Positions 1 to 58,630 of a stretch of 58,630 nt of DNA are shown here, piece after piece. Each line of letters opens with the position of its first letter. Positions within the stretch are counted from its first letter, which is position 1. The DNA is taken from contig CAKOOU010000001.1 in the NCBI GenBank assembly GCA_934098455.1, forward strand, positions 1 to 58,630, given 5' to 3'. Position numbers and translations under genes: made by a program. The notes below the pieces were generated by a model, which searched no databases, had not been told where the DNA came from, and was given only the letters and a program-made list of their open reading frames with translations. Source of the stretch: an uncultured Bacilli bacterium (GTDB taxonomy: Bacteria > Bacillota_I > Bacilli_A > RF39 > UBA660).

Positions 1-284
1 TCTTCTAAGTATACAGCATAATTATTTATAGTTGCATTACCACTATTAGTTACTGTAAATGTCTTTGCTGTTATAGAGTCACCTGGCTCTATCTTTTCTG
101 CTGTTATAAGTGCATTACCATCTCCATAAACTAATTCTAAGTTTGCAGTTATAACACTAATACTTTTTTCATTATCATTTCCTTTTATTTTAGTTAGGAA
201 ATATGCGTAAGTTAATCCTACAAGAATCAAAAGTACTATAAATATTCCTGTTACACTTACTATTAACTTCTGTCTACGATTCAT
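1..284 (-). CDS. N-terminal part of a secreted TasA/camelysin-like protein with SipW-type signal peptide (3' end lies outside the window)
   Basis: ATG at 284..282 follows a GGAAGGGTGA Shine-Dalgarno (rc of 291..300). Translation MNRRQKLIVSVTGIFIVLLILVGLTYAYFLTKIKGNDNEK... has a basic N-terminus, a hydrophobic helix and a TYAYF motif typical of SipW-cleaved TasA/CalY-type proteins. The frame stays open to position 1. Confidence 0.5.
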   Translation of the reverse strand, partial: MNRRQKLIVSVTGIFIVLLILVGLTYAYFLTKIKGNDNEKSISVITANLELVYGDGNALITAEKIEPGDSITAKTFTVTNSGNATINNYAVYLE

Positions 285-394
285 CTAACTTCACCCTTCC
301 TATATTTAACAAATTAATTATATAATTTATTTTACTTAATTACCATGTGCTTATAGTACCATAAATATTTTAATTAATTTGTCATTTTTACACG

Positions 395-460
395 AAAAAA
401 TTATATCTCTTTATACCCCCCCCCCCAACGAATTTTGGGGTTGGGAGAGAGATATAATTT
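395..460 (-). terminator. Long hairpin with a C11/G-rich core, followed by a T-run on the minus strand; likely intrinsic terminator of the upstream S41 peptidase gene
   Basis: aaattatatctct (398..410) is the perfect reverse complement of agagatataattt (448..460). The inner arms are C11 (416..426) against ttggggttggg (435..445). On the minus strand the stem is followed by TTTTTT (rc of 395..400). Confidence 0.55.
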
Positions 461-14750: not shown

Positions 14751-14825
14751 GCAGGTGTAGTACAGCGGTTAGTATGCGGCCTTGCCAAGGCTGAGACGGC
14801 GGTTCGATTCCGCTCACTTGCTCCA
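14751..14825 (+). tRNA. tRNA-Gly (anticodon GCC) with encoded CCA
   Basis: Hand-folded cloverleaf: acceptor GCAGGTG/CACTTGC, D arm GTAC/GTAT, anticodon stem CGGCC/GGCTG with loop TTGCCAA, T arm GGCGG-TTCGATT-CCGCT, then discriminator and CCA. Confidence 0.9.
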
Positions 14826-51277: not shown

Positions 51278-52141
51278 TTAACAATCATTTAGTTCATTAT
51301 ATACTTTTTTTAATATATCATATCTCATAGAAATTATTTTTTTATAAAAATCTTTTCTAACATCAGAAATACATGAAATATTATTTATAAAACTATCTAT
51401 TTTTTCAATATCAATTTTATTAAACATTCTTTTTAATGCTTCATTACATCCATTATTCTTTCTGCTCTTTATAAAAGTCATATAATTAATTTTTTTGTTA
51501 TTATCTTTTAAACATGAATAACAATTGAGAACAATATTTTTAAAATCTTCTACCCTCATTTTTTCAATATCACTATCTTCAAGCATTGGATTTAAACATG
51601 AACCACAATCATAAATTGGAGAAAATTCAATTTTTTTAGTCTTTTTATTAACTAAAAAGCCCCAATTACCATTATGTCTATCTGTATTACCAATAATACT
51701 ATCAATTATAAACATATCCCAAAATTTTTCTTGTATAGAGTTATAATCAAACAATTTACTATTTCTAAGTATTTCTAAAATATCTTCTAATTCAGTACCA
51801 ATTTTTTTATCAGGATTAGCACTTAATGCAATACTTTCAAATTCATATAATTCATTTTCATCATCTGTAAAATCTAAACAAGCGCAAACTGTTTTTTCTA
51901 CACCATTAAATTTATATTTGCCTAATAAAGTTTCTTGAGTTTCAAAACCTACTAATCTAAATATATTGCTACCAACATATTCAGACAATGAATTATTTAT
52001 ATAAGAAATATTTTTATTCTTCTCTCTTACTGGATCCGGAAATTTTACTAAATATCTTTTATCTTCAAAAATTAAAGTTTTTTTCTTTTCTGAACCCTTA
52101 TAATTATTCATTTCTTCAACACAATTTGTAAAATCAATCAT
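51278..52141 (-). CDS. HipA-like serine/threonine kinase (C-terminal kinase domain only)
   Basis: IIGNTDRHNGNWGF catalytic-loop motif and IYDCGSC. Start moved to ATG 52141, which follows AAGGAGG. There is no adjacent HipB-like HTH gene. Confidence 0.6.
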   Translation of the reverse strand: MIDFTNCVEEMNNYKGSEKKKTLIFEDKRYLVKFPDPVREKNKNISYINNSLSEYVGSNIFRLVGFETQETLLGKYKFNGVEKTVCACLDFTDDENELYEFESIALSANPDKKIGTELEDILEILRNSKLFDYNSIQEKFWDMFIIDSIIGNTDRHNGNWGFLVNKKTKKIEFSPIYDCGSCLNPMLEDSDIEKMRVEDFKNIVLNCYSCLKDNNKKINYMTFIKSRKNNGCNEALKRMFNKIDIEKIDSFINNISCISDVRKDFYKKIISMRYDILKKVYNELNDC

Positions 52142-52168
52142 TAAATGCACCTCCTTAACTATTAAAAA

Positions 52169-53644
52169 TTATTTATTTTTCATTTGTGGAAATAATACAA
52201 CATCTCTTATAGATGGTTGATTAAATATTAACATCATTAATCTATCTATTCCAAATCCTAATCCACTTATAGGTGGCATACCTTGTTCCATAGCCATTAA
52301 GAAACTCTCATCCATATCCATAGTTTCATCATCACCTTGAGCTTTAGCTTTTAATTGTTCCATAAATGCTTCTCTTTGCTCTATTGGATTAACTAACTCT
52401 GAATAAGCTTTACATAACTCTGTTCCAGCAGCAAGTACTTGGAATACATCTATTCTTCTCTTATCTTCATCATTTCTACGAGCTAAAGGTATCATAACTG
52501 CAGGATAATTATATATAATTGTTGGTTCCATTATACCTTCTCTAATTTTCTTTTTATAACAGAAATCAATTATTTGACTTAATGATTTATAATCTTCTAA
52601 ATCTTCATAACTAAATAATCCTTTTTCAACTATTTTATCCTTTAATTCTATTGGGTCAGTAATATCTAAGAATTCAAATCCAAATACTTTGTTCATTTCT
52701 TCAACGTAATTTATTCTATTCCAATTTTCTTTTCCAAAATCTAAACTATGTCCTTGATATTCTATAGTAGTAGTACCAAGTAATTCTAATAATAAATTTT
52801 TAATAAATCCTTGATAAAATTTTATATTATCTTCAAAATTCCAATAAGCAACATACCATTCAACTTGTGTAAATTCTTGTAAATGTTCTGTATCCATTCC
52901 TTCATTTCTAAAACATTTTGCAAGTTCATAAACTCTATCAAATCCACCAGCTATACATTGTTTTAAGTAAGTTTCTGGAGCAATTCTTAAATTACATTCC
53001 ATATCAAGAGCATTATGATGTGTAAAGAATGGTTTAGCACTAGCACCACATACAGCATTTTGAAGTATAGGAGTTTCAACTTCTAAGAATCCATTTTCAC
53101 CTAAATATCTATGTAAAAATGAATAAAATTTACTTCTACCTAAAAATACTTTTCTAGACTCTTCATTCATTATTAAATCAGTATATCTTTGTCTATACTT
53201 CATTTCTTGATCTGTAAGTCCATGGAATTTTTCTGGAAGAGGTCTTAATGCTTTACCTAAAAATTCAAAACTTTTAACTCTTAAAGTTTTCTCACCAGTT
53301 TGAGTTGTAAACATTTCACCAGTTGCACCCATAAAGTCACCAGAATCAAACATTTTCTTAAAGAATGCATATTTTTCTTCTCCAACTTCATCAACTTTTA
53401 ATTCTAATTGTATACTTCCTTCCAAATCACGAATACGTATAAAAGATAATTTACCCATCTTTCTCATAAACATAATTCTTCCACATACACTAACTCCAGT
53501 AATACCATCTTCTAATTTAGAAGCGTCTTTTAAAGTATGTGTTCTTTTAAAACTATCAGGATAGGGATTACAAACTTTTTCTATTTCTTTTAATTTATCA
53601 CGTCTAACTTGTTCTTGTTCAGAATATTCACGCATATTAATCAA
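52169..53644 (-). CDS. lysS: Lysine--tRNA ligase (class II)
   Basis: OB-fold N-terminus, class II motifs (FRNEG, GLGFGIDRL) and RYRQRYTDL. Confidence 0.92.
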   Translation of the reverse strand: MINMREYSEQEQVRRDKLKEIEKVCNPYPDSFKRTHTLKDASKLEDGITGVSVCGRIMFMRKMGKLSFIRIRDLEGSIQLELKVDEVGEEKYAFFKKMFDSGDFMGATGEMFTTQTGEKTLRVKSFEFLGKALRPLPEKFHGLTDQEMKYRQRYTDLIMNEESRKVFLGRSKFYSFLHRYLGENGFLEVETPILQNAVCGASAKPFFTHHNALDMECNLRIAPETYLKQCIAGGFDRVYELAKCFRNEGMDTEHLQEFTQVEWYVAYWNFEDNIKFYQGFIKNLLLELLGTTTIEYQGHSLDFGKENWNRINYVEEMNKVFGFEFLDITDPIELKDKIVEKGLFSYEDLEDYKSLSQIIDFCYKKKIREGIMEPTIIYNYPAVMIPLARRNDEDKRRIDVFQVLAAGTELCKAYSELVNPIEQREAFMEQLKAKAQGDDETMDMDESFLMAMEQGMPPISGLGFGIDRLMMLIFNQPSIRDVVLFPQMKNK

Positions 53645-53738
53645 CTTCTTTCGTTAACTAGTATATCGATAAACTAAAAAAAAATCAATACAAAGAATAT
53701 AAAATTGTATATTTCATATATTTTAAAGAGGTGAAATA

Positions 53739-54068
53739 ATGAACGGAACATATTATCAAAATCCAACTTTTCCCGCTGCTACAACATCTAACTATCAAGA
53801 TACAATAGTACCAGTAGGAAATGACTTACCTATGGAACAAAGTTACATAGAGAATATTTTAAGACTAAATAAAGGAAAGAAAGTAAAAGCATATGTTAGT
53901 TATCCTGATTCTATAGATTGGAAAGATTCTGTATATACAGGAATAATAGAACAAGCAGGAAGAGACCACTTAATTATAAGTGACCCAACAACAGGTAAGT
54001 GGTATCTAATTCTAATGATTTATTTAAACTATGTAGAATTTGAAGAAAAAATAAATTATTCCATTTAA
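53739..54068 (+). CDS. gerQ: Spore coat protein GerQ-like
   Basis: SYIENILRLNKGKKVKAYVSY...GIIEQAGRDHLIISDPTTGKWYLILMIYLNYVEF matches the GerQ/YwdL pattern. Confidence 0.65.
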   Translation: MNGTYYQNPTFPAATTSNYQDTIVPVGNDLPMEQSYIENILRLNKGKKVKAYVSYPDSIDWKDSVYTGIIEQAGRDHLIISDPTTGKWYLILMIYLNYVEFEEKINYSI

Positions 54069-54088
54069 AAAAATGCCCTAGAGCATTT

Positions 54089-54616
54089 TTATTTTATATA
54101 ACTTTCCAGCATATTTCTTTCATCAAATAAATAAGTACTATCTCCATGTCCAGGATATATTTTATAATTAACATTAGATTTCAAAATAGATTTAATACTT
54201 TCCTTCATCAAATTAAAATCTCCACCTAAATCGCATCTACCAATACAACCTTTAAATATAAAATCCCCACTAAACATAATATTATCAAAAATAAAACTTA
54301 TAGAATCCATAGTATGTCCTAAATTATATCTAACTTCAAACTTAAAATTCCCAATAACATTCATACCTTCATGTAAATTACTAATATCATACACAGGAAC
54401 TTTATAGTATTTAGATACACTATCTAATGCTCCAACATGATCAAAATGTCTATGTGTTAAAAGTATACCAACTACTTTTTTATCAATATTTTTAATTATT
54501 TTATCACTTTCACTCTCAGGATCTATTATCAAGCATTCAATATCATTTTCTACAATATAACAATTAGTTTCTAATTCACCAACAACAACTTTTTTAATAT
54601 TCACATATATCACCAA
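54089..54616 (-). CDS. MBL-fold metallo-hydrolase
   Basis: THRHFDHVG motif with later GH and GD motifs. The start codon is uncertain. Confidence 0.75.
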   Translation of the reverse strand: MVIYVNIKKVVVGELETNCYIVENDIECLIIDPESESDKIIKNIDKKVVGILLTHRHFDHVGALDSVSKYYKVPVYDISNLHEGMNVIGNFKFEVRYNLGHTMDSISFIFDNIMFSGDFIFKGCIGRCDLGGDFNLMKESIKSILKSNVNYKIYPGHGDSTYLFDERNMLESYIK

Positions 54617-54672
54617 TATTATTTTACAATTTTTTTAATATTTATGCTATACTTATATAGTAGGTGATGTAA

Positions 54673-55221
54673 ATGAATATAATAATGATAATAATTTTAA
54701 TTGCAATAATACTTATAGGAATATTAATAATAAGTTATATATATAATTTTAATAATTTACAAGAAAAGAATATAAAAATTAATGAATCAGAAAGTATAAT
54801 AGATAATGAACTAAGAAATAAATATGATTTAATAATGAAATCTTCTACAACAATAAATAAATTATTAAAAAAAGAAGTTACATATTTTAAAGATTTAGAA
54901 AAATTAAAAAAAGATAATATATCAAATTTTGATTTAGATAGAAAAATTGTAGAAGGTGAAAACTTAATTCATCAAGTAAAAAATGATTATAAATCTTTAG
55001 AAGATAATGAAGAATATATCAGTATAATAAATGATTTAAAAGATAGTGATGAAATATTAGAAGCAGCAAAAGCATTTTATAACAAATACACAACAGAAAT
55101 AAATTTATTAATAAAAAAATTTCCAACAAATATAATTGCTAAATTTCATAAAATAAAACTTAGAAACTATTTTGACGGAAAAAATATGTTCGACGATGAA
55201 ATCAAAGATTTTAAACTTTGA
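54673..55221 (+). CDS. LemA family protein
   Basis: N-terminal TM helix, then the LemA-like pattern NESESIIDNELRNKYDLI...AAKAFYNKYT. Confidence 0.65.
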   Translation: MNIIMIIILIAIILIGILIISYIYNFNNLQEKNIKINESESIIDNELRNKYDLIMKSSTTINKLLKKEVTYFKDLEKLKKDNISNFDLDRKIVEGENLIHQVKNDYKSLEDNEEYISIINDLKDSDEILEAAKAFYNKYTTEINLLIKKFPTNIIAKFHKIKLRNYFDGKNMFDDEIKDFKL

Positions 55222-55227
55222 TTTTTT

Positions 55228-55274
55228 TATAACTCCAAAAAAATCAAATATTTTCATACTTTTTTGGAGTTATA
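55228..55274. terminator. Bidirectional intrinsic terminator between the LemA gene (+) and the DGR reverse transcriptase (-)
   Basis: tataactccaaaaaa (55228..55242) pairs with ttttttggagttata (55260..55274). Confidence 0.7.
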
Positions 55275-55346
55275 ACGAATATTTAATCCTATTTTGTTTT
55301 GCACACTGGACAAAATTAGTATTTTTGCATTTTTGTCTATTGCGAA

Positions 55347-56345
55347 CTACAAATATCCCTTATAACTATTAACAACGACCTTATACTTATCGATATCATA
55401 TTTTTTCAAATACTTTAACTTTCTTCTAATTCTAACTTTATTTTTATATTTTACTTTAATAACTAACTTATTACTATCATTAAGAAAAAATTTATATCCT
55501 AAAAAACAAAATCCCTTCTTAGAGTCATATACTCTAGTTTTATTATTAATACTTAGTCCTAATTCATTTAATTTTTTCTTAATTATTTCTAAACAATATA
55601 ATAAATATCCATAATTATAATCTATCAAAACAAAATCATCAACATACCTAACATAATATTTAATACCTAATTTTTCTTTTATAAAATGATCTATATCATT
55701 TAAATAAAAACTAGCAAGTATCTGACTAATATAACTACCTATATTCAATCCCTTATTATATTTATATAAATAATCTTTATCTTCTACTAATTTACTTATT
55801 CTATCATTAACATAATCTTTATTAGTGCTATCAATAATATTCTTAATAATATTATATATATCTTTATCAACAATACTATATAATTTATTAAGTAATATAT
55901 CATGATCTATATTAAAAAAATATTTCTTAATATCAATCTTCAATATATAAAACTTATTATGTTTTAACTTAATACTATTAATATATTTTTTTATTAACTT
56001 TACACCATAACTACTACCCATATTCTTACGAGTAGCAATATTAGAATTAATTAATTTTTTATCAATAATATCTACCAAATAATATTTACATATCAAATGA
56101 CTAACAATCTTATCATTAATATTTTCACTCATAATAACTCTTAACTTAGGTTCATATATTAAAAATATATTATATATTCCATGCCAATATTTACCATTAA
56201 TTAACTTATTATATAAATTAATTATATTACTACTAATAAACATATCATATTTAACTAACTTATCTCTATTCTTAGTATTCTTCTTTATATCATAATAACA
56301 ATCTAATAAATTATTTATAGTAACTACATCACTTATTCTTTTCAT
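55347..56345 (-). CDS. DGR-type reverse transcriptase
   Basis: RT motifs EPKLRVI, LKIDIKKYFFNIDH, GLNIGSYISQILASFYLN (the [ILV]GxxxSQ motif diagnostic of DGR RTs), YVRYVDDFVL and FCFLGYKF. Confidence 0.9.
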   Translation of the reverse strand: MKRISDVVTINNLLDCYYDIKKNTKNRDKLVKYDMFISSNIINLYNKLINGKYWHGIYNIFLIYEPKLRVIMSENINDKIVSHLICKYYLVDIIDKKLINSNIATRKNMGSSYGVKLIKKYINSIKLKHNKFYILKIDIKKYFFNIDHDILLNKLYSIVDKDIYNIIKNIIDSTNKDYVNDRISKLVEDKDYLYKYNKGLNIGSYISQILASFYLNDIDHFIKEKLGIKYYVRYVDDFVLIDYNYGYLLYCLEIIKKKLNELGLSINNKTRVYDSKKGFCFLGYKFFLNDSNKLVIKVKYKNKVRIRRKLKYLKKYDIDKYKVVVNSYKGYL

Positions 56346-56670
56346 ACTTTATTAACCCATACACAATTCTTTTTATTTCAATCAAATAATTACTAACACT
56401 AACATATCTTTTATTCTTAATAATCCCTTTATTAAAACATATATAAACATAATAATTTAATAAACTAACATTAACTAATATATCATTTAATATATCTAAT
56501 TTACTATCATATATTTGATACTTAAATATATATTTAATATTATTATACATACAACTATCTATTTCATTCTTTAAAACATATTCTTTATTAGGAAAACAAC
56601 TTAATATATATTTATTAATATAATTATTTATTAAATAACATTTATTTAATAAATTAAAATTATAATTCAT
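56329..56670 (-). CDS. avd: Avd-like accessory variability determinant (small helical-bundle protein)
   Basis: 113 aa, basic and predicted all-helical, placed directly upstream of and overlapping the RT gene by 17 nt. The pattern ...NEIDSCMYNNIKYIFK...LVNVSLLNYYVYICFNKGIIKNKRY...IEIKRIVYGLIK fits four-helix-bundle Avd proteins. Confidence 0.6.
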   Translation of the reverse strand: MNYNFNLLNKCYLINNYINKYILSCFPNKEYVLKNEIDSCMYNNIKYIFKYQIYDSKLDILNDILVNVSLLNYYVYICFNKGIIKNKRYVSVSNYLIEIKRIVYGLIKYEKNK

Positions 56671-57067
56671 CCAAATACCTCATAATATCTATATATTTAT
56701 TTATATCACTATCTAATATATCTTTAACTTTATTATTAATATTTAATATATAATTATCTAAATTATATTTACTATTACCTAATATTAAATATTTATTATA
56801 ATTATTTATTTCATGATAAATATATTTTATATCATGATCACTATTATATATTAAATAATCTATACTATATTCATCCAACCTACATTCTATACTTTTAATA
56901 ATATTAACAGGAAAGCCTACTTTATTATTATGTAATCTATAATTAAACAAATATCCAACAACAATAGCATTATTATAGAAACATCTATAAAAATTACCAT
57001 ATTTCATTAATATAACTGTATTTTTATATTCACTTCTTAATTTTTTATTTATCTCTATTAATCTCAT
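56660..57067 (-). CDS. MutS-domain-I-like small accessory protein (MSL-type DGR accessory gene)
   Basis: VILMKYGNFYRCFYNNAIVVGYLFNYRLHNNKVGFPVNIIKSIECRLDEYSIDYLI aligns by eye with MutS domain I ([29 protein letters not shown]...[25 protein letters not shown]). Start set at ATG 57067, which follows GGTGA; the ORF-track start at 57106 merely reads through the GT repeat. Confidence 0.6.
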   Translation of the reverse strand: MRLIEINKKLRSEYKNTVILMKYGNFYRCFYNNAIVVGYLFNYRLHNNKVGFPVNIIKSIECRLDEYSIDYLIYNSDHDIKYIYHEINNYNKYLILGNSKYNLDNYILNINNKVKDILDSDINKYIDIMRYLDEL

Positions 57068-57084
57068 ATTATCACCATAAATAT

Positions 57085-57117
57085 AATATAACACACACAC
57101 ACACACACACGTGTCAA
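57085..57117 (-). promoter_or_regulatory. Promoter-like element whose spacer is a (GT)10 microsatellite
   Basis: The minus strand reads TTGACA (57117..57112) C (GT)10 TATATT (57090..57085). The spacer is 21 nt, and the last TGT gives a TGn extended -10. Confidence 0.35.
57091..57110. repeat. (AC)10 / (GT)10 dinucleotide microsatellite
   Basis: acacacacacacacacacac, a perfect 20 bp tract. Confidence 0.98.
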
Positions 57118-57154
57118 GTATTTTTTACTATTATTATGTAAATTATACAAAAAA

Positions 57155-57205
57155 AGTAAGCCATATAACAATATAGATTACAATAAACTATATTGTGTGC
57201 TTACT
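57155..57205 (-). terminator. Long imperfect hairpin plus T-run downstream of TR (terminator or DGR-RNA 3' structure)
   Basis: agtaagc (57155..57161) pairs with gcttact (57199..57205), and aacaatatag (57167..57176) with ctatattgt (57188..57196). On the minus strand the stem is followed by six or seven T residues. Confidence 0.5.
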
Positions 57206-57360
57206 CTATTTTTAGTTTAATTATAATTAAATCAGGGAATAAATCTTGTTTCCAATCTATTTAGATTAATGCAAAGTGCATTTACTTCTTCTCATTAAAA
57301 ATTATATATTCTTAATACTCAGTATAGCAAATATTATTTAATATTCTACATAGTAGGAAT

Positions 57361-57488
57361 CTAGGGCGGAAAGCGTTAGTGTTGTTGACGTTGTTGGTGT
57401 TGATGTTACCATTCGACCCATTAACGTTCCACTCGTTCGCATTCGAACCATTATAGTTGTTCGGAGACGAAAGCCACCAATTAGAAGT
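57361..57488 (-). repeat. DGR template repeat (TR), non-coding
   Basis: 128 bp homologous to 57674..57801. On the minus strand it is rich in AAC triplets (conceptual SNWWLSSPNNYNGSNANEWNVNGSNGNINTNNVNNTNAFRP). Confidence 0.9.
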
Positions 57489-57514
57489 ACCCAATTTTTT
57501 TAGATTTACACCCA

Positions 57515-57547
57515 CACATCCACGGCGCGATTTTGCCGTTAGATGTG
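57515..57547 (-). other. GC-rich nested hairpin immediately 5' of TR (in transcript orientation)
   Basis: cacatc (57515..57520) pairs with gatgtg (57542..57547), and acggc (57522..57526) with gccgt (57535..57539). Confidence 0.5.
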
Positions 57548-57551
57548 CCCT

Positions 57552-57578
57552 CAAAAAGCATTTGCCTATGCTTTTTGA
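57552..57578 (-). terminator. Hairpin after the stop codon of the DGR target gene
   Basis: caaaaagcat / atgctttttg form a 10 bp stem with a 6 nt loop, 20-50 nt downstream of the stop at 57601. Confidence 0.45.
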
Positions 57579-57600
57579 ATCCTTTATCCTAGTCTTAACT

Positions 57601-58630
57601 TTACTTAACTGTGTAAGGATTTGAACTAGTTCCATCTCCTCCATTTATTAGCAATTCAGCCTTTAGATTGATACTAGGGCGGAAAGCGGCAGTGTTGCGG
57701 ACGTTGAAGGTGTAGATGCCACCACCCGACCCATTAACGAACCACCCGTACGCATACGAACCATTATAGCTGAGTGGAGACGAAAGCCACCAATGAGAAG
57801 TTATAGATGAATTATACAAATAATATGATTTGTTTGTTTGACCAGATTTATAAGCACCAGCATATGCTGCCTCATCCACAGTAAGTAGGCCTATCGGATA
57901 TTTTAAATTTCCATTAGTCTCTTTTCCATTTGGTAATGTACTTTTTGTTGTTGTATATCTTGAATAATTATCGTTTGCCTTCTCTGCACATTTGAATGTT
58001 GGTGTTGATGTTGTTATTGCTGTTGTTCCAGTGCTATATAGTAATCTTTCTACTGAAGAATAATATGTTATATTTGTTCCATATCCTTTTGCAGTATTAT
58101 TTGAACCGATTCCACTTTCTGCTAGTGTTTTATCTCCACAAAATAATGTGTCACTTAAATAGTTTGCATAATTTGTTTTTAAATTATCTTCATACCATTT
58201 GTCTACTGCGATTTTTATTGTACTATCATTTTTATTCTCATGTGTAGCATCATACGTTGCACTTCCTGGTGTTCCATACATATATCCTATATATGCATTA
58301 TCATTAGAGTTAGTATTAAATGCAGTTTTTATAGCATTACCACTTGTATCTTTTGCAACATCATCTAGTATAAGTCTTATTGAACCGTCTCCATTTATTC
58401 TTACTATTCTCCAAACTTTATCTGCAAATGATACATAATTATCTATTACATTCCCTCTAAAATAATAACTTGTTCCATAATCATCTGGCGCTGTATTTAA
58501 TACATGTTCTGTTTCTCTTGATACACTTGTAAATGTTGTTACTTCACTTCCTAATGTTGTTCTTGTACTGTCTGTTTGTGTTTTTGCTGTATTTATTATA
58601 GTACTAGCAAGTGTATCTGTTCCAAATGGT
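57601..58630 (-). CDS. DGR target protein (5' end outside window) with C-terminal C-type-lectin-like variable region
   Basis: I checked this frame codon by codon and it stays open from 58281 to the window edge. The C-terminus is ...SHWWLSSPLSYNGSYAYGWFVNGSGGGIYTFNVRNTAAFRPSINLKAELLINGGDGTSSNPYTVK*. The WWL.SP...(A/V)FRP framework is typical of DGR-diversified CLec-fold ligand-binding domains. Confidence 0.85.
   Translation of the reverse strand, partial: PFGTDTLASTIINTAKTQTDSTRTTLGSEVTTFTSVSRETEHVLNTAPDDYGTSYYFRGNVIDNYVSFADKVWRIVRINGDGSIRLILDDVAKDTSGNAIKTAFNTNSNDNAYIGYMYGTPGSATYDATHENKNDSTIKIAVDKWYEDNLKTNYANYLSDTLFCGDKTLAESGIGSNNTAKGYGTNITYYSSVERLLYSTGTTAITTSTPTFKCAEKANDNYSRYTTTKSTLPNGKETNGNLKYPIGLLTVDEAAYAGAYKSGQTNKSYYLYNSSITSHWWLSSPLSYNGSYAYGWFVNGSGGGIYTFNVRNTAAFRPSINLKAELLINGGDGTSSNPYTVK
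57674..57801 (-). repeat. DGR variable repeat (VR) inside the target gene
   Basis: Aligned with TR at an offset of +313 there are 21 mismatches, and 20 of them fall where TR has A on the coding strand. The identical GC-rich 3' end GCTTTCCGCCCTAG (rc of 57674..57687 / 57361..57374) is IMH-like. Confidence 0.9.

What the first reader, a model, noticed from the sequence alone, without database searches (positions are those of the whole stretch)
55347..58630. Complete diversity-generating retroelement with adenine-specific TR/VR divergence
Two 128 bp repeats, 57361..57488 (TR) and 57674..57801 (VR), align without gaps at an offset of 313.

I counted 21 mismatches. Twenty fall at positions where the plus strand of TR has T, which is A on the coding minus strand. 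These are TR positions 57376, 57377, 57385, 57386, 57394, 57395, 57401, 57406, 57407, 57412, 57413, 57427, 57428, 57433, 57437, 57443, 57457, 57460, 57461 and 57482. The only other change (57462) is a synonymous Pro-codon change.

TR read conceptually is Asn/AAC-rich (NNYNGSNANEWNVNGSNGNINTNNVNNTNAFRP). VR encodes PLSYNGSYAYGWFVNGSGGGIYTFNVRNTAAFRP, so 13 codons are diversified inside a WWLSSP...AFRP framework.

Downstream lie a MutS-I-like ORF, an Avd-like ORF and an RT carrying the DGR-specific IGSYISQ motif and YVDDF.

This is direct sequence evidence for mutagenic retrohoming acting on a surface or ligand-binding protein in a very low-GC spore-former. The 5' part of the target gene lies outside the window.
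Basis: partly seen in the sequence, partly recalled or inferred. Interest (0 to 1): 0.85.

Follow-up and report, generated by a model that had tools for sequence, protein, structure and literature searches.

The report
Msl-type diversity-generating retroelement, chromosomal
This is a genuine, complete diversity-generating retroelement of an already described type (reverse transcriptase + Avd + MutS-like Msl) in an uncultured low-GC human-gut bacterium; it rewrites the tip of a secreted protein, and its one unusual feature is a conserved (GT)n tract inside the promoter-like region in front of its enzyme genes.

Summary
TR 57361-57488 and VR 57674-57801 align without gaps, with 21 mismatches. 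Twenty fall at template adenines on the coding minus strand (p about 1e-11).

On the minus strand the cassette reads: target gene (VR, then a 24-codon tail), terminator, structured TR RNA with its own terminator, promoter-like region, then msl, avd and RT with overlapping ORFs.

- **RT:** its best solved relative is the Bordetella DGR RT, and it carries IGSYISQ and YVDDF.
- **Msl:** the "MutS-I-like ORF" is the known DGR accessory protein Msl. Its model (pLDDT 96) matches only MutS domain I.
- **Information flow:** one metagenome allele (L003) has a different VR. All its changes are at template adenines, and it copies a TR-private C-to-A change, so information flowed from TR to VR.
- **Family variability:** across 70 family members, variability sits on the TR adenine codons.
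- **Activity:** VR and the whole cassette are identical in 9 of 10 assemblies that reach VR (the window included), so activity looks rare.

It is a new member of a known kind (Wu et al. "architecture D").

New here is a TTGACA-(GT)9-11-extended -10 arrangement upstream of msl. It is kept in lineages down to 37-46% Msl identity. Its function is untested. The C-type lectin fold could not be confirmed because the structure model failed.

The parts
57601..58630 (-). 3' part (342 codons plus stop) of the DGR target gene. The full gene is about 540 aa in contig L001. It has an N-terminal SipW/camelysin-type signal region, a central region of unknown fold, a C-terminal DUF6273-like domain carrying VR, and a 24-aa tail.
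   Evidence: ORF runs off the window end. Full gene in L001 2994-4616. Peptidase_M73 5.5e-5 and DUF6273 0.004. 38 of 70 family members hit Peptidase_M73 and 19 of 70 hit DUF6273. 2399 homologues.
57674..57801 (-). Variable repeat (VR), 128 nt, codons 277-318 of the window fragment.
   Evidence: Family entropy is 2.89 bits at codons with TR-A in position 1 or 2, against 0.74 elsewhere in VR.
57674..57687 (-). IMH-like 3' end of VR, GCTTTCCGCCCTAG. It is G+C-rich, has no adenine before the final TAG, and is identical in TR at 57361-57374. Homology ends immediately after it.
57553..57576 (-). Terminator-like hairpin (AAAAAGCAT-AGGCAA-ATGCTTTTT) after the target stop codon.
   Evidence: Conserved in related lineages.
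57515..57547 (-). G+C-rich hairpin (CACATCTAACGGC...GCCGTGGATGTG) followed by GGGTGTAA, just 5' of TR. Inferred 5' element of the TR RNA.
   Evidence: Paired in the MFE and centroid folds. Nearly invariant across lineages, with a T-G/T-A change that keeps the pair. An analogous hairpin plus GGGTGTAA sits in distant locus L016.
57361..57488 (-). Template repeat (TR), 39 adenines, 16 AAY codons. Not translated; the 110-aa ORF 57312-57644 that spans it is spurious.
   Evidence: TR is identical in 9 of 10 related contigs, and the tenth has one C>A change.
57205..57360 (-). Spacer-like (Sp) non-coding segment 3' of TR. It is extremely conserved and contains the motif ACAAGATTTATTCC (57236-57249), which is shared with distant Msl-DGRs.
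   Evidence: Alignment of 8 lineages is nearly invariant although Msl proteins are only 67-82% identical. Motif also present in L016 and L011. The whole RNA folds with z = -3.7.
57149..57204 (-). Long hairpin plus T7: intrinsic-terminator-like end of the TR RNA unit.
57085..57117 (-). Promoter-like region of the msl-avd-RT operon: TTGACA (57112-57117), a 21-nt spacer C(GT)10 (57091-57111), and TGTGtTATATT with the -10 hexamer at 57085-57090.
   Evidence: The arrangement is kept in lineages down to 37-46% Msl identity. 2 of 5 matches to the pattern in 2.9 M viral contigs lie directly upstream of msl.
56660..57067 (-). msl, the MutS-like DGR accessory gene, 135 aa, pI 8.4. SD-like GGTGAT at 57071-57076.
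   Evidence: MutS_I 1.2e-5. Profile hits the MutS GxFYE region. AF2 pLDDT 96, and all 50 listed Foldseek PDB hits are MutS/MSH proteins, aligned over 69-101 columns. 638 relatives among representatives. Msl described in PMC5758913.
56329..56670 (-). avd, 113 aa, pI 9.2. Overlaps msl by 11 nt and RT by 17 nt.
55347..56345 (-). DGR reverse transcriptase, 332 aa, with IGSYISQ (55722-55742) and YVDDF (55632-55646).

Best explanation
This is a chromosomal, Msl-type diversity-generating retroelement.

**Shown by sequence**
- The minus strand carries the target gene with a C-terminal VR.
- Next comes a separately terminated, structured non-coding RNA of about 400 nt that contains TR and a highly conserved spacer.
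- Then come three overlapping ORFs, msl, avd and RT, behind a promoter-like region.

**Inferred from the Bordetella paradigm and the bRT-Avd-RNA structures**
- The RT-Avd complex binds the TR RNA and primes cDNA synthesis from the spacer.
- It copies TR and misincorporates opposite the 39 template adenines.
- The cDNA replaces VR. Homology is anchored at the adenine-poor GCTTTCCGCCCTAG at the 3' end and at ACTTCT.ATTGGTGGCTTTCGTCTCC at the 5' end.
- This randomises 22 codons (16 AAY codons plus 6 others), roughly 1e22 possible peptides. They lie in the DUF6273-like C-terminal domain of a secreted or fibre-type protein that has a SipW/camelysin-type N-terminus.

**Inferred, mechanism unknown**
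- Msl, a stand-alone MutS mismatch-binding domain, acts on the mismatched cDNA/target heteroduplex or interferes with host mismatch repair.

**Activity**
Retrohoming has happened in this lineage but appears infrequent. Most sampled populations carry one and the same VR.
For: **TR/VR pair**
- A-specific mismatches: 20 of 21, p = 1e-11.

**TR-to-VR information flow**
- Contig L003 has a private TR change (C>A at TR position 92), and its VR carries the same A.
- The other 22 L003 VR differences all fall at TR adenines.
- The window's one non-A mismatch is absent from the L003 VR.

**Proteins**
- RT: best PDB hit is Bordetella bRT 8ub7, E 7e-22 over residues 4-311, against about 1e-8 for group II, retron-type and Cas6-RT enzymes. 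phrog_1423 9e-72. Motifs IGSYISQ and YVDDF are present.
- Avd. Its pI of 9.2 fits the published 9.5 +/- 0.7.
- Msl. The literature defines Msl as a DGR accessory gene that always occurs with avd ('Architecture D') and is also found in Bacteroides DGRs.

**Family-level hypervariability**
- Variability is confined to TR-adenine codons (2.89 against 0.74 bits, Mann-Whitney p = 4e-8).

**Natural control**
- In a syntenic lineage whose RT has lost the catalytic core, only 15 of 27 TR/VR substitutions are at A. There is also an indel, and the TR copy of the IMH has mutated.

**Conservation of the non-coding TR flanks**
-.

**Chromosomal context**
- Neighbours are LemA, an MBL-fold protein, a GerQ-domain protein, LysRS and ABC transporters. 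No phage genes were called within about 10 kb downstream of the RT or in the 3 kb upstream of the full target gene in L001.
Against: - No reads were available, so ongoing diversification is not shown.
- VR is identical in 9 of 10 assemblies that reach it, from three studies (the window included). The whole cassette 55347-58289 has zero SNPs in the eight related contigs first compared, while flanks differ.
- L003 is a divergent allele of the whole target/TR segment, so its different VR need not be a recent event.
- Avd scores are below the curated cut-offs (38.9 against 40 bits; 35.2 against 80).
- The target's C-type lectin fold is not demonstrated. The AF2 model has pLDDT 39.6, and DUF6273 scores only 17.3 bits against a cut-off of 23.5 for the window protein.
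- No DNA hairpin lies next to the IMH as in the Bordetella phage. The nearest is the terminator about 98 nt downstream.
- The promoter of the TR RNA was not identified.
Confidence: 0.95

Rival explanations
1. It is an intact-looking but functionally silent DGR. The element retrohomed in the past and is now quiescent or inactive in this species, so VR is effectively a fixed allele.
For: - VR is identical in 9 of 10 assemblies from different hosts and studies.
- There are zero SNPs across the cassette.
- The msl-operon promoter has a 21-nt -35/-10 spacing, far from the sigma-70 optimum of 17 nt, in 16 of 18 contigs.
- Decay of the same element (RT core deletion; msl without avd or RT) is seen in sister lineages.
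Against: - All three ORFs, TR, IMH and the RNA flanks are intact and under strong conservation. This holds across lineages whose proteins have diverged by 20-30%.
- 20 of 21 mismatches are still at A, unlike the decayed lineage at 15 of 27.
- Assemblies report only the majority sequence and would hide minority VR variants.
Confidence: 0.25
2. It is not a DGR. TR is a decaying partial duplicate (pseudogene fragment) of the target's 3' end, next to an unrelated retron, group II intron or defence-type RT.
For: - NCBIfam gives its best, far sub-threshold, hits to group II RT/maturase (89.8 bits against a cut-off of 300) and Drt3a.
- TR lies in an open frame of 110 codons that itself matches DUF6273.
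Against: - The adenine restriction of the mismatches has p = 1e-11.
- TR is invariant while VR varies, and a TR-private change is copied into VR.
- Avd and Msl sit next to the RT.
- The best solved relative is the DGR bRT, by 13 orders of magnitude.
- No intron RNA family or any other Rfam family was found in the region.
Confidence: 0.01
3. The (GT)n tract upstream of msl is a neutral microsatellite or an assembly-prone sequence with no role in the element.
For: - Within the species, length variants are rare: n=8 once in a 1.5x-coverage contig and n=11 once in a short Logan contig, against 16 contigs with the 21-nt spacer.
- Such variants could be PCR or sequencing stutter.
- Two other distant Msl loci (L012, L013) lack the tract.
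Against: - It is the only (GT)/(AC) run of 5 or more units in the 58.6-kb, 23% G+C window.
- It sits at the same place, between a TTGAC(A) box and a -10-like box in front of msl, in lineages with only 37-46% Msl identity and even with a different gene order (L011).
- Spacer length is kept at 21-22 nt by compensating substitutions: C(GT)10, CAC(GT)9, T(GT)10 and AC(GT)9GA.
- 2 of only 5 matches in 2.9 M viral contigs precede msl.
- Decayed elements have shortened tracts, n = 5-7.
Confidence: 0.2

Closest known systems
Msl-containing DGRs ('Architecture D' of Wu, Gingery, Abebe et al., NAR 2018, PMC5758913; includes the Legionella pneumophila DGR; also Bacteroides Bfr, Bth and Bun DGRs, bioRxiv 10.1101/2024.11.15.621889)
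   Same: - An RT, an Avd and a small stand-alone MutS-domain-I-like protein sit in one cassette, with an adenine-specific TR/VR pair.
- Msl size (135 aa) lies within the published 112-283 aa.
- Msl co-occurs with avd, and there is no HRDC gene.
   Different: - Host: an uncultured 23% G+C Bacillota/Bacilli-like gut organism.
- Gene order: target-TR-msl-avd-RT, with TR as a separately terminated unit upstream of msl.
- Msl pI is 8.4, against the published 7.2 +/- 1.7.
- A (GT)n tract lies in the msl promoter-like region. None of the papers I searched mentions this.
- The Phe of the MutS Phe-X-Glu motif is kept, but Glu is Arg here.
Bordetella phage BPP-1 DGR (mtd-avd-TR-brt; bRT-Avd-RNA structures 8ub7 and related entries)
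   Same: - The RT is the closest solved relative (E 7e-22).
- Avd is a partner.
- TR is followed by a conserved spacer RNA.
- A G+C-rich, adenine-poor IMH-like segment lies at the 3' end of VR.
- AAY-rich TR.
   Different: - Chromosomal, not phage-borne.
- An extra Msl gene.
- TR is upstream of the accessory genes rather than between avd and brt.
- No hairpin next to the IMH.
- VR is followed by 24 more codons.
- The target is not Mtd-like.
DUF6273-domain DGR targets of gut phages (tentaclins and target2 proteins, PMC10743442; Faecalibacterium prophages, PMC11792537)
   Same: The VR-bearing domain matches Pfam DUF6273 (19 of 70 family members, best 7.4e-7). In those papers DUF6273 was modelled as C-type-lectin-like with VR on the surface.
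   Different: - Here the domain is C-terminal in a roughly 540-aa cellular protein.
- That protein has a SipW/camelysin-type N-terminus, or a prepilin N_methyl N-terminus in some relatives, rather than belonging to a phage tail protein.
- The fold is not confirmed for this protein.
Simple-sequence-repeat promoter switches (e.g. the poly-G tract in the Neisseria porA promoter, PMC3639595; from my own knowledge, the (TA)n tract between -35 and -10 of Haemophilus hifA/hifB)
   Same: A short tandem repeat fills the -35/-10 spacer, so unit gain or loss changes the spacing in fixed steps. n=8 would give exactly 17 nt. Variants with n=8, 10 and 11 exist.
   Different: - Length is strikingly constant (21-22 nt) in intact elements across lineages rather than scattered.
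- The variants are rare and of uncertain quality.
- The tract also supplies a TRTG extended -10, which could make the -35 box dispensable.
- No expression data exist.

Membership tests
Diversity-generating retroelement (DGR) | TR/VR repeat pair whose differences are confined to adenines of TR | tested here: met
   20 of 21 at TR-A, p = 1e-11. A second allele has 22 of 23 at A, and the remaining difference mirrors a TR change.
Diversity-generating retroelement (DGR) | RT of the DGR clade, with the motif-4 signature [I/L/V]GxxxSQ and a YxDD catalytic motif | tested here: met
   IGSYISQ at aa 202-208 and YVDDF at aa 234-238. Best PDB relative is bRT 8ub7, 7e-22, against about 1e-8 for other RT classes. 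phrog_1423 9e-72. No explicit phylogeny was built.
Diversity-generating retroelement (DGR) | Accessory protein Avd (small, basic four-helix bundle) next to the RT | tested here: met
   113 aa, pI 9.2, overlaps the RT start. bAvd 1.4e-9 (38.9 bits against a cut-off of 40), NF033474 1.2e-8 (sub-threshold), phrog_3206 'Avd protein of DGR' 1.4e-10.
Diversity-generating retroelement (DGR) | Unidirectional TR-to-VR information transfer, with TR conserved and VR variable | tested here: met
   TR is identical in 9 of 10 related contigs. The one TR variant (C>A) is mirrored in its own VR. VR alleles differ at 25 positions, 23 of them TR adenines. This is comparative evidence, not a time series.
Diversity-generating retroelement (DGR) | IMH at the 3' end of VR (G+C-rich segment) with a nearby DNA hairpin or cruciform, as in BPP-1 | tested here: inconclusive
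   The shared 14-nt GCTTTCCGCCCTAG is 64% G+C in a 23% G+C genome, and homology ends right after it. There is no hairpin within a few bases; the nearest is the terminator about 98 nt downstream.
Diversity-generating retroelement (DGR) | Ongoing diversification within a population | not testable with these tools
   Only assembled contigs were available. 9 of 10 assemblies that reach VR share one VR.
Msl accessory family / DGR 'Architecture D' (Wu et al. 2018) | Small protein (112-283 aa) homologous to MutS domain I, encoded in the cassette together with avd and without HRDC | tested here: met
   135 aa. Pfam MutS_I 26.0 bits against a cut-off of 20.6. A profile of 63 relatives hits the MutS N-terminus in the PDB. 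AF2 pLDDT 96, and all 50 listed Foldseek hits are MutS/MSH proteins. avd is adjacent. Definition.
C-type-lectin-fold DGR variable proteins (DUF6273 class) | VR displayed on a CLec-fold domain | tested here: inconclusive
   DUF6273 scores 17.3 bits for the window protein (cut-off 23.5). 19 of 70 relatives match, best 7.4e-7. AF2 model pLDDT 39.6, unusable. The family profile finds no PDB relative. The CLec nature of DUF6273 is taken from PMC10743442.
SSR-mediated phase-variable promoter | Repeat tract between -35 and -10 whose length varies between cells or strains and changes expression | tested here: inconclusive
   The tract and flanking hexamers are present and conserved. Length variants n=8 and n=11 are seen once each, in low-coverage contigs, against 16 with the 21-nt spacer. 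Expression is not testable here.
Group II intron / retron RT (considered and rejected) | Intron RNA domains or an msr-msd RNA; a maturase/X domain; scores above family cut-offs | tested here: not met
   TIGR04416 scores 89.8 bits against a cut-off of 300. No Rfam intron or retron RNA in 55000-58630, even at E up to 5. PDB hits to these classes are about 1e-8 or weaker.

The most novel reading that the evidence does not exclude
The conserved (GT)n tract that forms the -35/-10 spacer of the msl-avd-RT promoter is a heritable slipped-strand rheostat. The prevailing 21-nt state keeps the hypermutation machinery nearly silent, and rare contraction to n=8 (17 nt) switches it on. Targeted hypermutation would then itself be phase-variable, a second-order contingency locus.

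A related, still more speculative variant: Msl, a G.T-mismatch-binding fold, recognises structures extruded from the (GT)n tract and autoregulates the operon.
Probability: 0.15. Interest if true: 0.75.

Novelty: new member of a known kind. Interest (0 to 1): 0.4.

Why it matters
DGRs are the only known natural system of targeted protein hypermutation in prokaryotes, and the human gut is their richest habitat. The Msl-type cassettes are the least understood.

This locus offers:
- a compact, fully delimited Msl-type element;
- many natural relatives, both intact and decayed;
- a very large target family (about 2,400 homologues). Its N-termini are of the TasA/camelysin or prepilin type, which suggests diversified fibre or adhesin subunits in Gram-positive gut bacteria;
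- a candidate cis-regulatory element, the (GT)n promoter tract. It could explain why many DGRs look intact yet static in metagenomes.

None of this changes the classification. The finding as submitted is a correct identification of an ordinary, already described kind of element.

Tried and rejected
1. **Target structure.** I predicted the structure of the 342-aa target fragment from a 70-sequence alignment. Mean pLDDT was 39.6, so I did not run a fold search and could not test the CLec fold. The family profile against PDB sequences found nothing.
2. **Rfam.** Searches on 55000-58630, on 1-900 and on the whole window found no family for the TR RNA or for the target-gene leader. The only hit above a gathering score was a tRNA-Gly at 14751-14825.
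3. **Promoter scan.** Hits are at chance level in this AT-rich DNA (27 found, 31.5 expected). I did not identify a promoter for the TR RNA, and the scan cannot see the 21-nt-spacer arrangement.
4. **More Msl loci.** Genome and metagenome scans gave only 3 loci each. The broad alignment was too divergent for the viral scan. Three single-protein viral scans found nothing. The generality of the (GT)n tract therefore rests on three clades, and two other Msl loci lack it.
5. **Organism name.** Cluster look-ups gave no names. The closest named LysRS proteins are MAGs labelled Firmicutes, Bacillota or Bacilli bacterium at 80-84% identity.
6. **Circular window.** L001's gene start matches window 154-298, so I considered that the window might be circular. 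The distances do not fit (463 nt against 153 nt to the join). Window 1-284 is a paralogue's 5' end.
7. **Coding (GT) tract.** Gene callers start msl at a GTG inside the tract. I rejected this because the tract changes in 2-nt steps, and a conserved SD-like sequence plus an ATG or GTG start at the M-R/K-L position is kept in all lineages.
8. **Poly-G leader.** I looked for G-tract length polymorphism upstream of a widely sampled family member (P0234, 10 contigs). That gene has a different leader without a G tract.

Full report
**1.

- The repeat finder reports one outstanding direct repeat in 54000-58630: 57361-57488 and 57674-57801, 128 nt, 313 nt apart, 84% identical.
Twenty have T on the plus strand of TR, which is A on the coding minus strand. 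The last (57462) is a G-to-A change on the coding strand that leaves a Pro codon unchanged.
- TR has 39 adenines in 128 nt, so 20 or more of 21 at A has probability 1e-11.
- Substitutions go to all three other bases: 8 G, 8 T and 4 C.
- The conceptual translations are as stated, and 13 codons differ.

**2. Anatomy, read 5' to 3' on the minus strand**

- **Target gene.** It enters from beyond 58630 and stops at 57601. VR lies at codons 277-318 of the visible fragment and is followed by 24 more codons.
- **Target terminator.** A terminator-like hairpin follows at 57553-57576.
- **5' hairpin.** A G+C-rich hairpin lies at 57515-57547.
- **TR and spacer.** TR spans 57361-57488. It is followed by a 156-nt spacer-like segment (57205-57360).
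- **TR RNA terminator.** A long hairpin with a T7 run lies at 57149-57204.
- **Fold.** The whole stretch folds better than all 100 shuffles (z = -3.7).
- **Conservation.** It is almost invariant across eight lineages whose Msl proteins are only 67-82% identical. This is what one expects of a functional DGR RNA (TR plus Sp).
- **Promoter-like region.** The sequence reads TTGACA (57112-57117), C(GT)10 (57091-57111), then TGTGtTATATT.
- **Operon.** An SD-like GGTGAT follows. Then come three overlapping ORFs: msl (57067-56660, 135 aa), avd (56670-56329, 113 aa) and RT (56345-55347, 332 aa).
- **Spurious ORF.** The 110-aa ORF across TR is not a gene. It matches DUF6273 only because TR is a copy of VR.

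**3. What the proteins are**

- **RT.** It matches RVT_1 (1.2e-19) and the phage RT family phrog_1423 (9e-72).
  - Among solved structures its best relative is the Bordetella DGR bRT (8ub7, E 7e-22, full length).
  - Cas6-RT, group II, retron-type and Drt3a RTs score 1e-8 or worse.
  - It has IGSYISQ and YVDDF.
- **Avd.** It is recognised by three libraries, though below the two curated cut-offs.
- **Msl.** The "MutS-I-like ORF" passes Pfam's MutS_I cut-off.
  - A profile of 63 relatives aligns to the GxFYE mismatch-binding segment of MutS.
  - The AlphaFold model is confident (pLDDT 96).
  - All 50 listed Foldseek PDB matches are MutS/MSH proteins, aligned over 69-101 columns.
  - This is the accessory protein Msl, defined by Wu et al. 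2018: 16 DGRs, always with avd, "Architecture D", including the Legionella element. It was also noted in Bacteroides DGRs.
  - The family is sizeable: 638 representatives at E of 1e-3 or better, and a few C-terminal fusions to proteins of about 500 aa.
  - In this lineage the stacking Phe of the MutS Phe-X-Glu motif is kept, but Glu is Arg.

**4. Evidence from related sequences**

- **Same RT in many samples.** The identical RT occurs on 22 metagenome contigs from human-gut studies.
- **VR across assemblies.** Ten assemblies reach VR: the window, L001-L005, L008-L010 and L050. Nine carry the same VR.
- **TR across contigs.** TR is identical in all related contigs except L003.
- **The L003 allele.**
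  - Its VR differs from TR at 23 positions. Twenty-two are TR adenines.
  - The 23rd is a position where L003's own TR has mutated C to A, and its VR carries that A.
  - L003's VR lacks the window's one non-A mismatch.
  - This is good comparative evidence for TR-to-VR transfer.
  - L003 is, however, a divergent allele of the whole target/TR segment, so the event need not be recent.
- **Cassette identity.** In the eight contigs other than L003 that were compared, the cassette from RT to 58289 has no SNP at all while the flanks differ. The element therefore looks mostly quiescent, or clonal, in the sampled populations.
- **Family variability.** The target protein has 2,399 homologues. In a 70-member alignment, entropy is 2.89 bits at VR codons with a TR adenine in position 1 or 2. 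It is 0.74 at the other VR codons and 0.71 outside VR.
- **Natural control.**
  - A syntenic sister lineage has an RT with the catalytic core deleted.
  - Its TR/VR differences are only 15 of 27 at A.
  - It also has an indel and a mutated IMH copy in TR.

**5. The target**

- The full gene (L001, 540 aa) starts with a charged and hydrophobic segment followed by TYAYF...ADLKLE. It passes the Peptidase_M73 (camelysin/TasA family) cut-off over residues 9-90.
- 38 of 70 relatives match Peptidase_M73, and 3 instead have a prepilin N_methyl motif.
- The C-terminus matches DUF6273 weakly (19 of 70 relatives, best 7.4e-7). Others have modelled DUF6273 as C-type-lectin-like in phage DGR targets.
- My structure model failed, so the fold remains unconfirmed.
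- Contigs of many assemblies break inside the 5' half of the gene. The window itself begins with the 5' end of a paralogue, so the family is multi-copy.
- I infer a secreted or fibre-type protein with a diversified ligand-binding tip.
- I found no paper linking DGRs to TasA/camelysin-type proteins.

**6. The unexpected feature: the (GT)n tract**

- **Uniqueness.** It is the only (GT)/(AC) run of 5 or more units in the window.
- **Recurrence.** The same arrangement, TTGAC(A), then (GT)9-11, then a -10-like box directly upstream of msl, recurs in:
  - sister lineages (Msl 67-82% identical);
  - L015 and L016 (41-46%);
  - L011, L035 and L039 (37%, where TR lies after msl).
- **Reverse search.** A search for the pattern in 2.9 million viral contigs gave five hits. 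Two of them lie in front of msl.
- **Spacer length in intact elements.** It is 21-22 nt, maintained by compensating substitutions: C(GT)10, CAC(GT)9, T(GT)10 and AC(GT)9GA.
- **Decayed elements.** They have n = 5-7.
- **Within the species.** I found n=8 (spacer exactly 17) once and n=11 once, both in low-coverage contigs. Sixteen contigs have the 21-nt spacer.
- **Extended -10.** The tract also provides a TRTG extended -10.
- **Absence elsewhere.** Two other distant Msl loci lack it.
- **Literature.** I found no paper connecting DGRs with repeat-containing promoters.
- **Conclusion.** I conclude it is very probably a functional cis element of this clade's msl operon. Whether it works as a slipped-strand switch, a rheostat, a structural element or a protein-binding site cannot be decided here.

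**7. Verdict**

The element is a new member of a known kind (Msl-type DGR with a DUF6273-class target) in an uncultured, 23% G+C Bacillota/Bacilli-like gut bacterium. It is chromosomal rather than phage-borne.

Still open:
- current activity;
- the fold of the target;
- the promoter of the TR RNA;
- the role of Msl;
- the role of the (GT)n tract.

Noticed in passing
window 57085-57117 (minus strand); also L011 3266-3300, L016 455-486, L035 1511-1547: TTGACA-C(GT)10-TGTGtTATATT lies directly upstream of msl. The (GT)9-11 tract between a -35-like and an extended -10-like box is conserved in Msl-DGR lineages down to 37% Msl identity. Within the species, variants n=8 and n=11 occur once each. Intact elements keep a 21-22-nt spacer, and decayed ones have n=5-7.
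   Followed up: yes
window 1-284 (minus strand) and 285-600: The window starts inside the 5' end (94 codons) of a paralogue of the DGR target gene, 93% identical in DNA to the start of the full target gene in L001. Upstream of both lies a conserved structured leader. It has a C-rich/G11 stem (window 416-426 is C11 on the plus strand) followed by a T run. No Rfam family matches. Both copies have G11, so no length variation was seen.
   Followed up: partly
window 58195-58630 and contigs L001-L010: The 5' half of the target gene is mosaic between strains: 49 clustered SNPs shared by L001, L002 and L009, and 129 in L003. Several assemblies, and the window itself, break there. This fits recombination among multiple family copies in one genome.
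   Followed up: partly
L019-L023 (syntenic with window about 52000-58000): A sister lineage keeps msl, avd (broken in L020), TR and VR. Its RT is reduced to 126 aa by an internal deletion that removes motifs 4-5. Its -35 box is TTGAGA and the tract is (GT)7ATGT. TR/VR differences are no longer adenine-specific (15 of 27).
   Followed up: yes
L040-L049 (protein P0234): A family member with a VR-like segment and an IMH-like end (GCTTTTCGCCCTAG) sits in a different context (PRK, GAPDH, GH31), with no RT called within 3 kb. It is identical in 17 contigs. It may be a frozen paralogue or a remote target. It is not known whether it belongs to the same genome as the window.
   Followed up: partly
L011 2800-4440: A distant Msl-DGR has the order target, terminators, P(GT)9, msl, TR, Sp, avd, RT, so TR lies after msl. 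Its VR is of a different type. The Sp motif ACAAGnTTTATTCC is shared with the window (57236-57249) and L016.
   Followed up: partly
L024/L025 (P0009 lineage), between RT and LemA: A related lineage has an extra AAA_14/DUF4143 ATPase gene inserted between the DGR RT and the LemA gene. It is absent from the window.
   Followed up: no
window 51278-52150 (minus strand): A HipA_C-domain (toxin kinase-like) ORF lies next to LysRS, about 3 kb from the DGR. A GerQ-domain ORF at 53739-54068 is the only sporulation-related hint I saw near the element.
   Followed up: no
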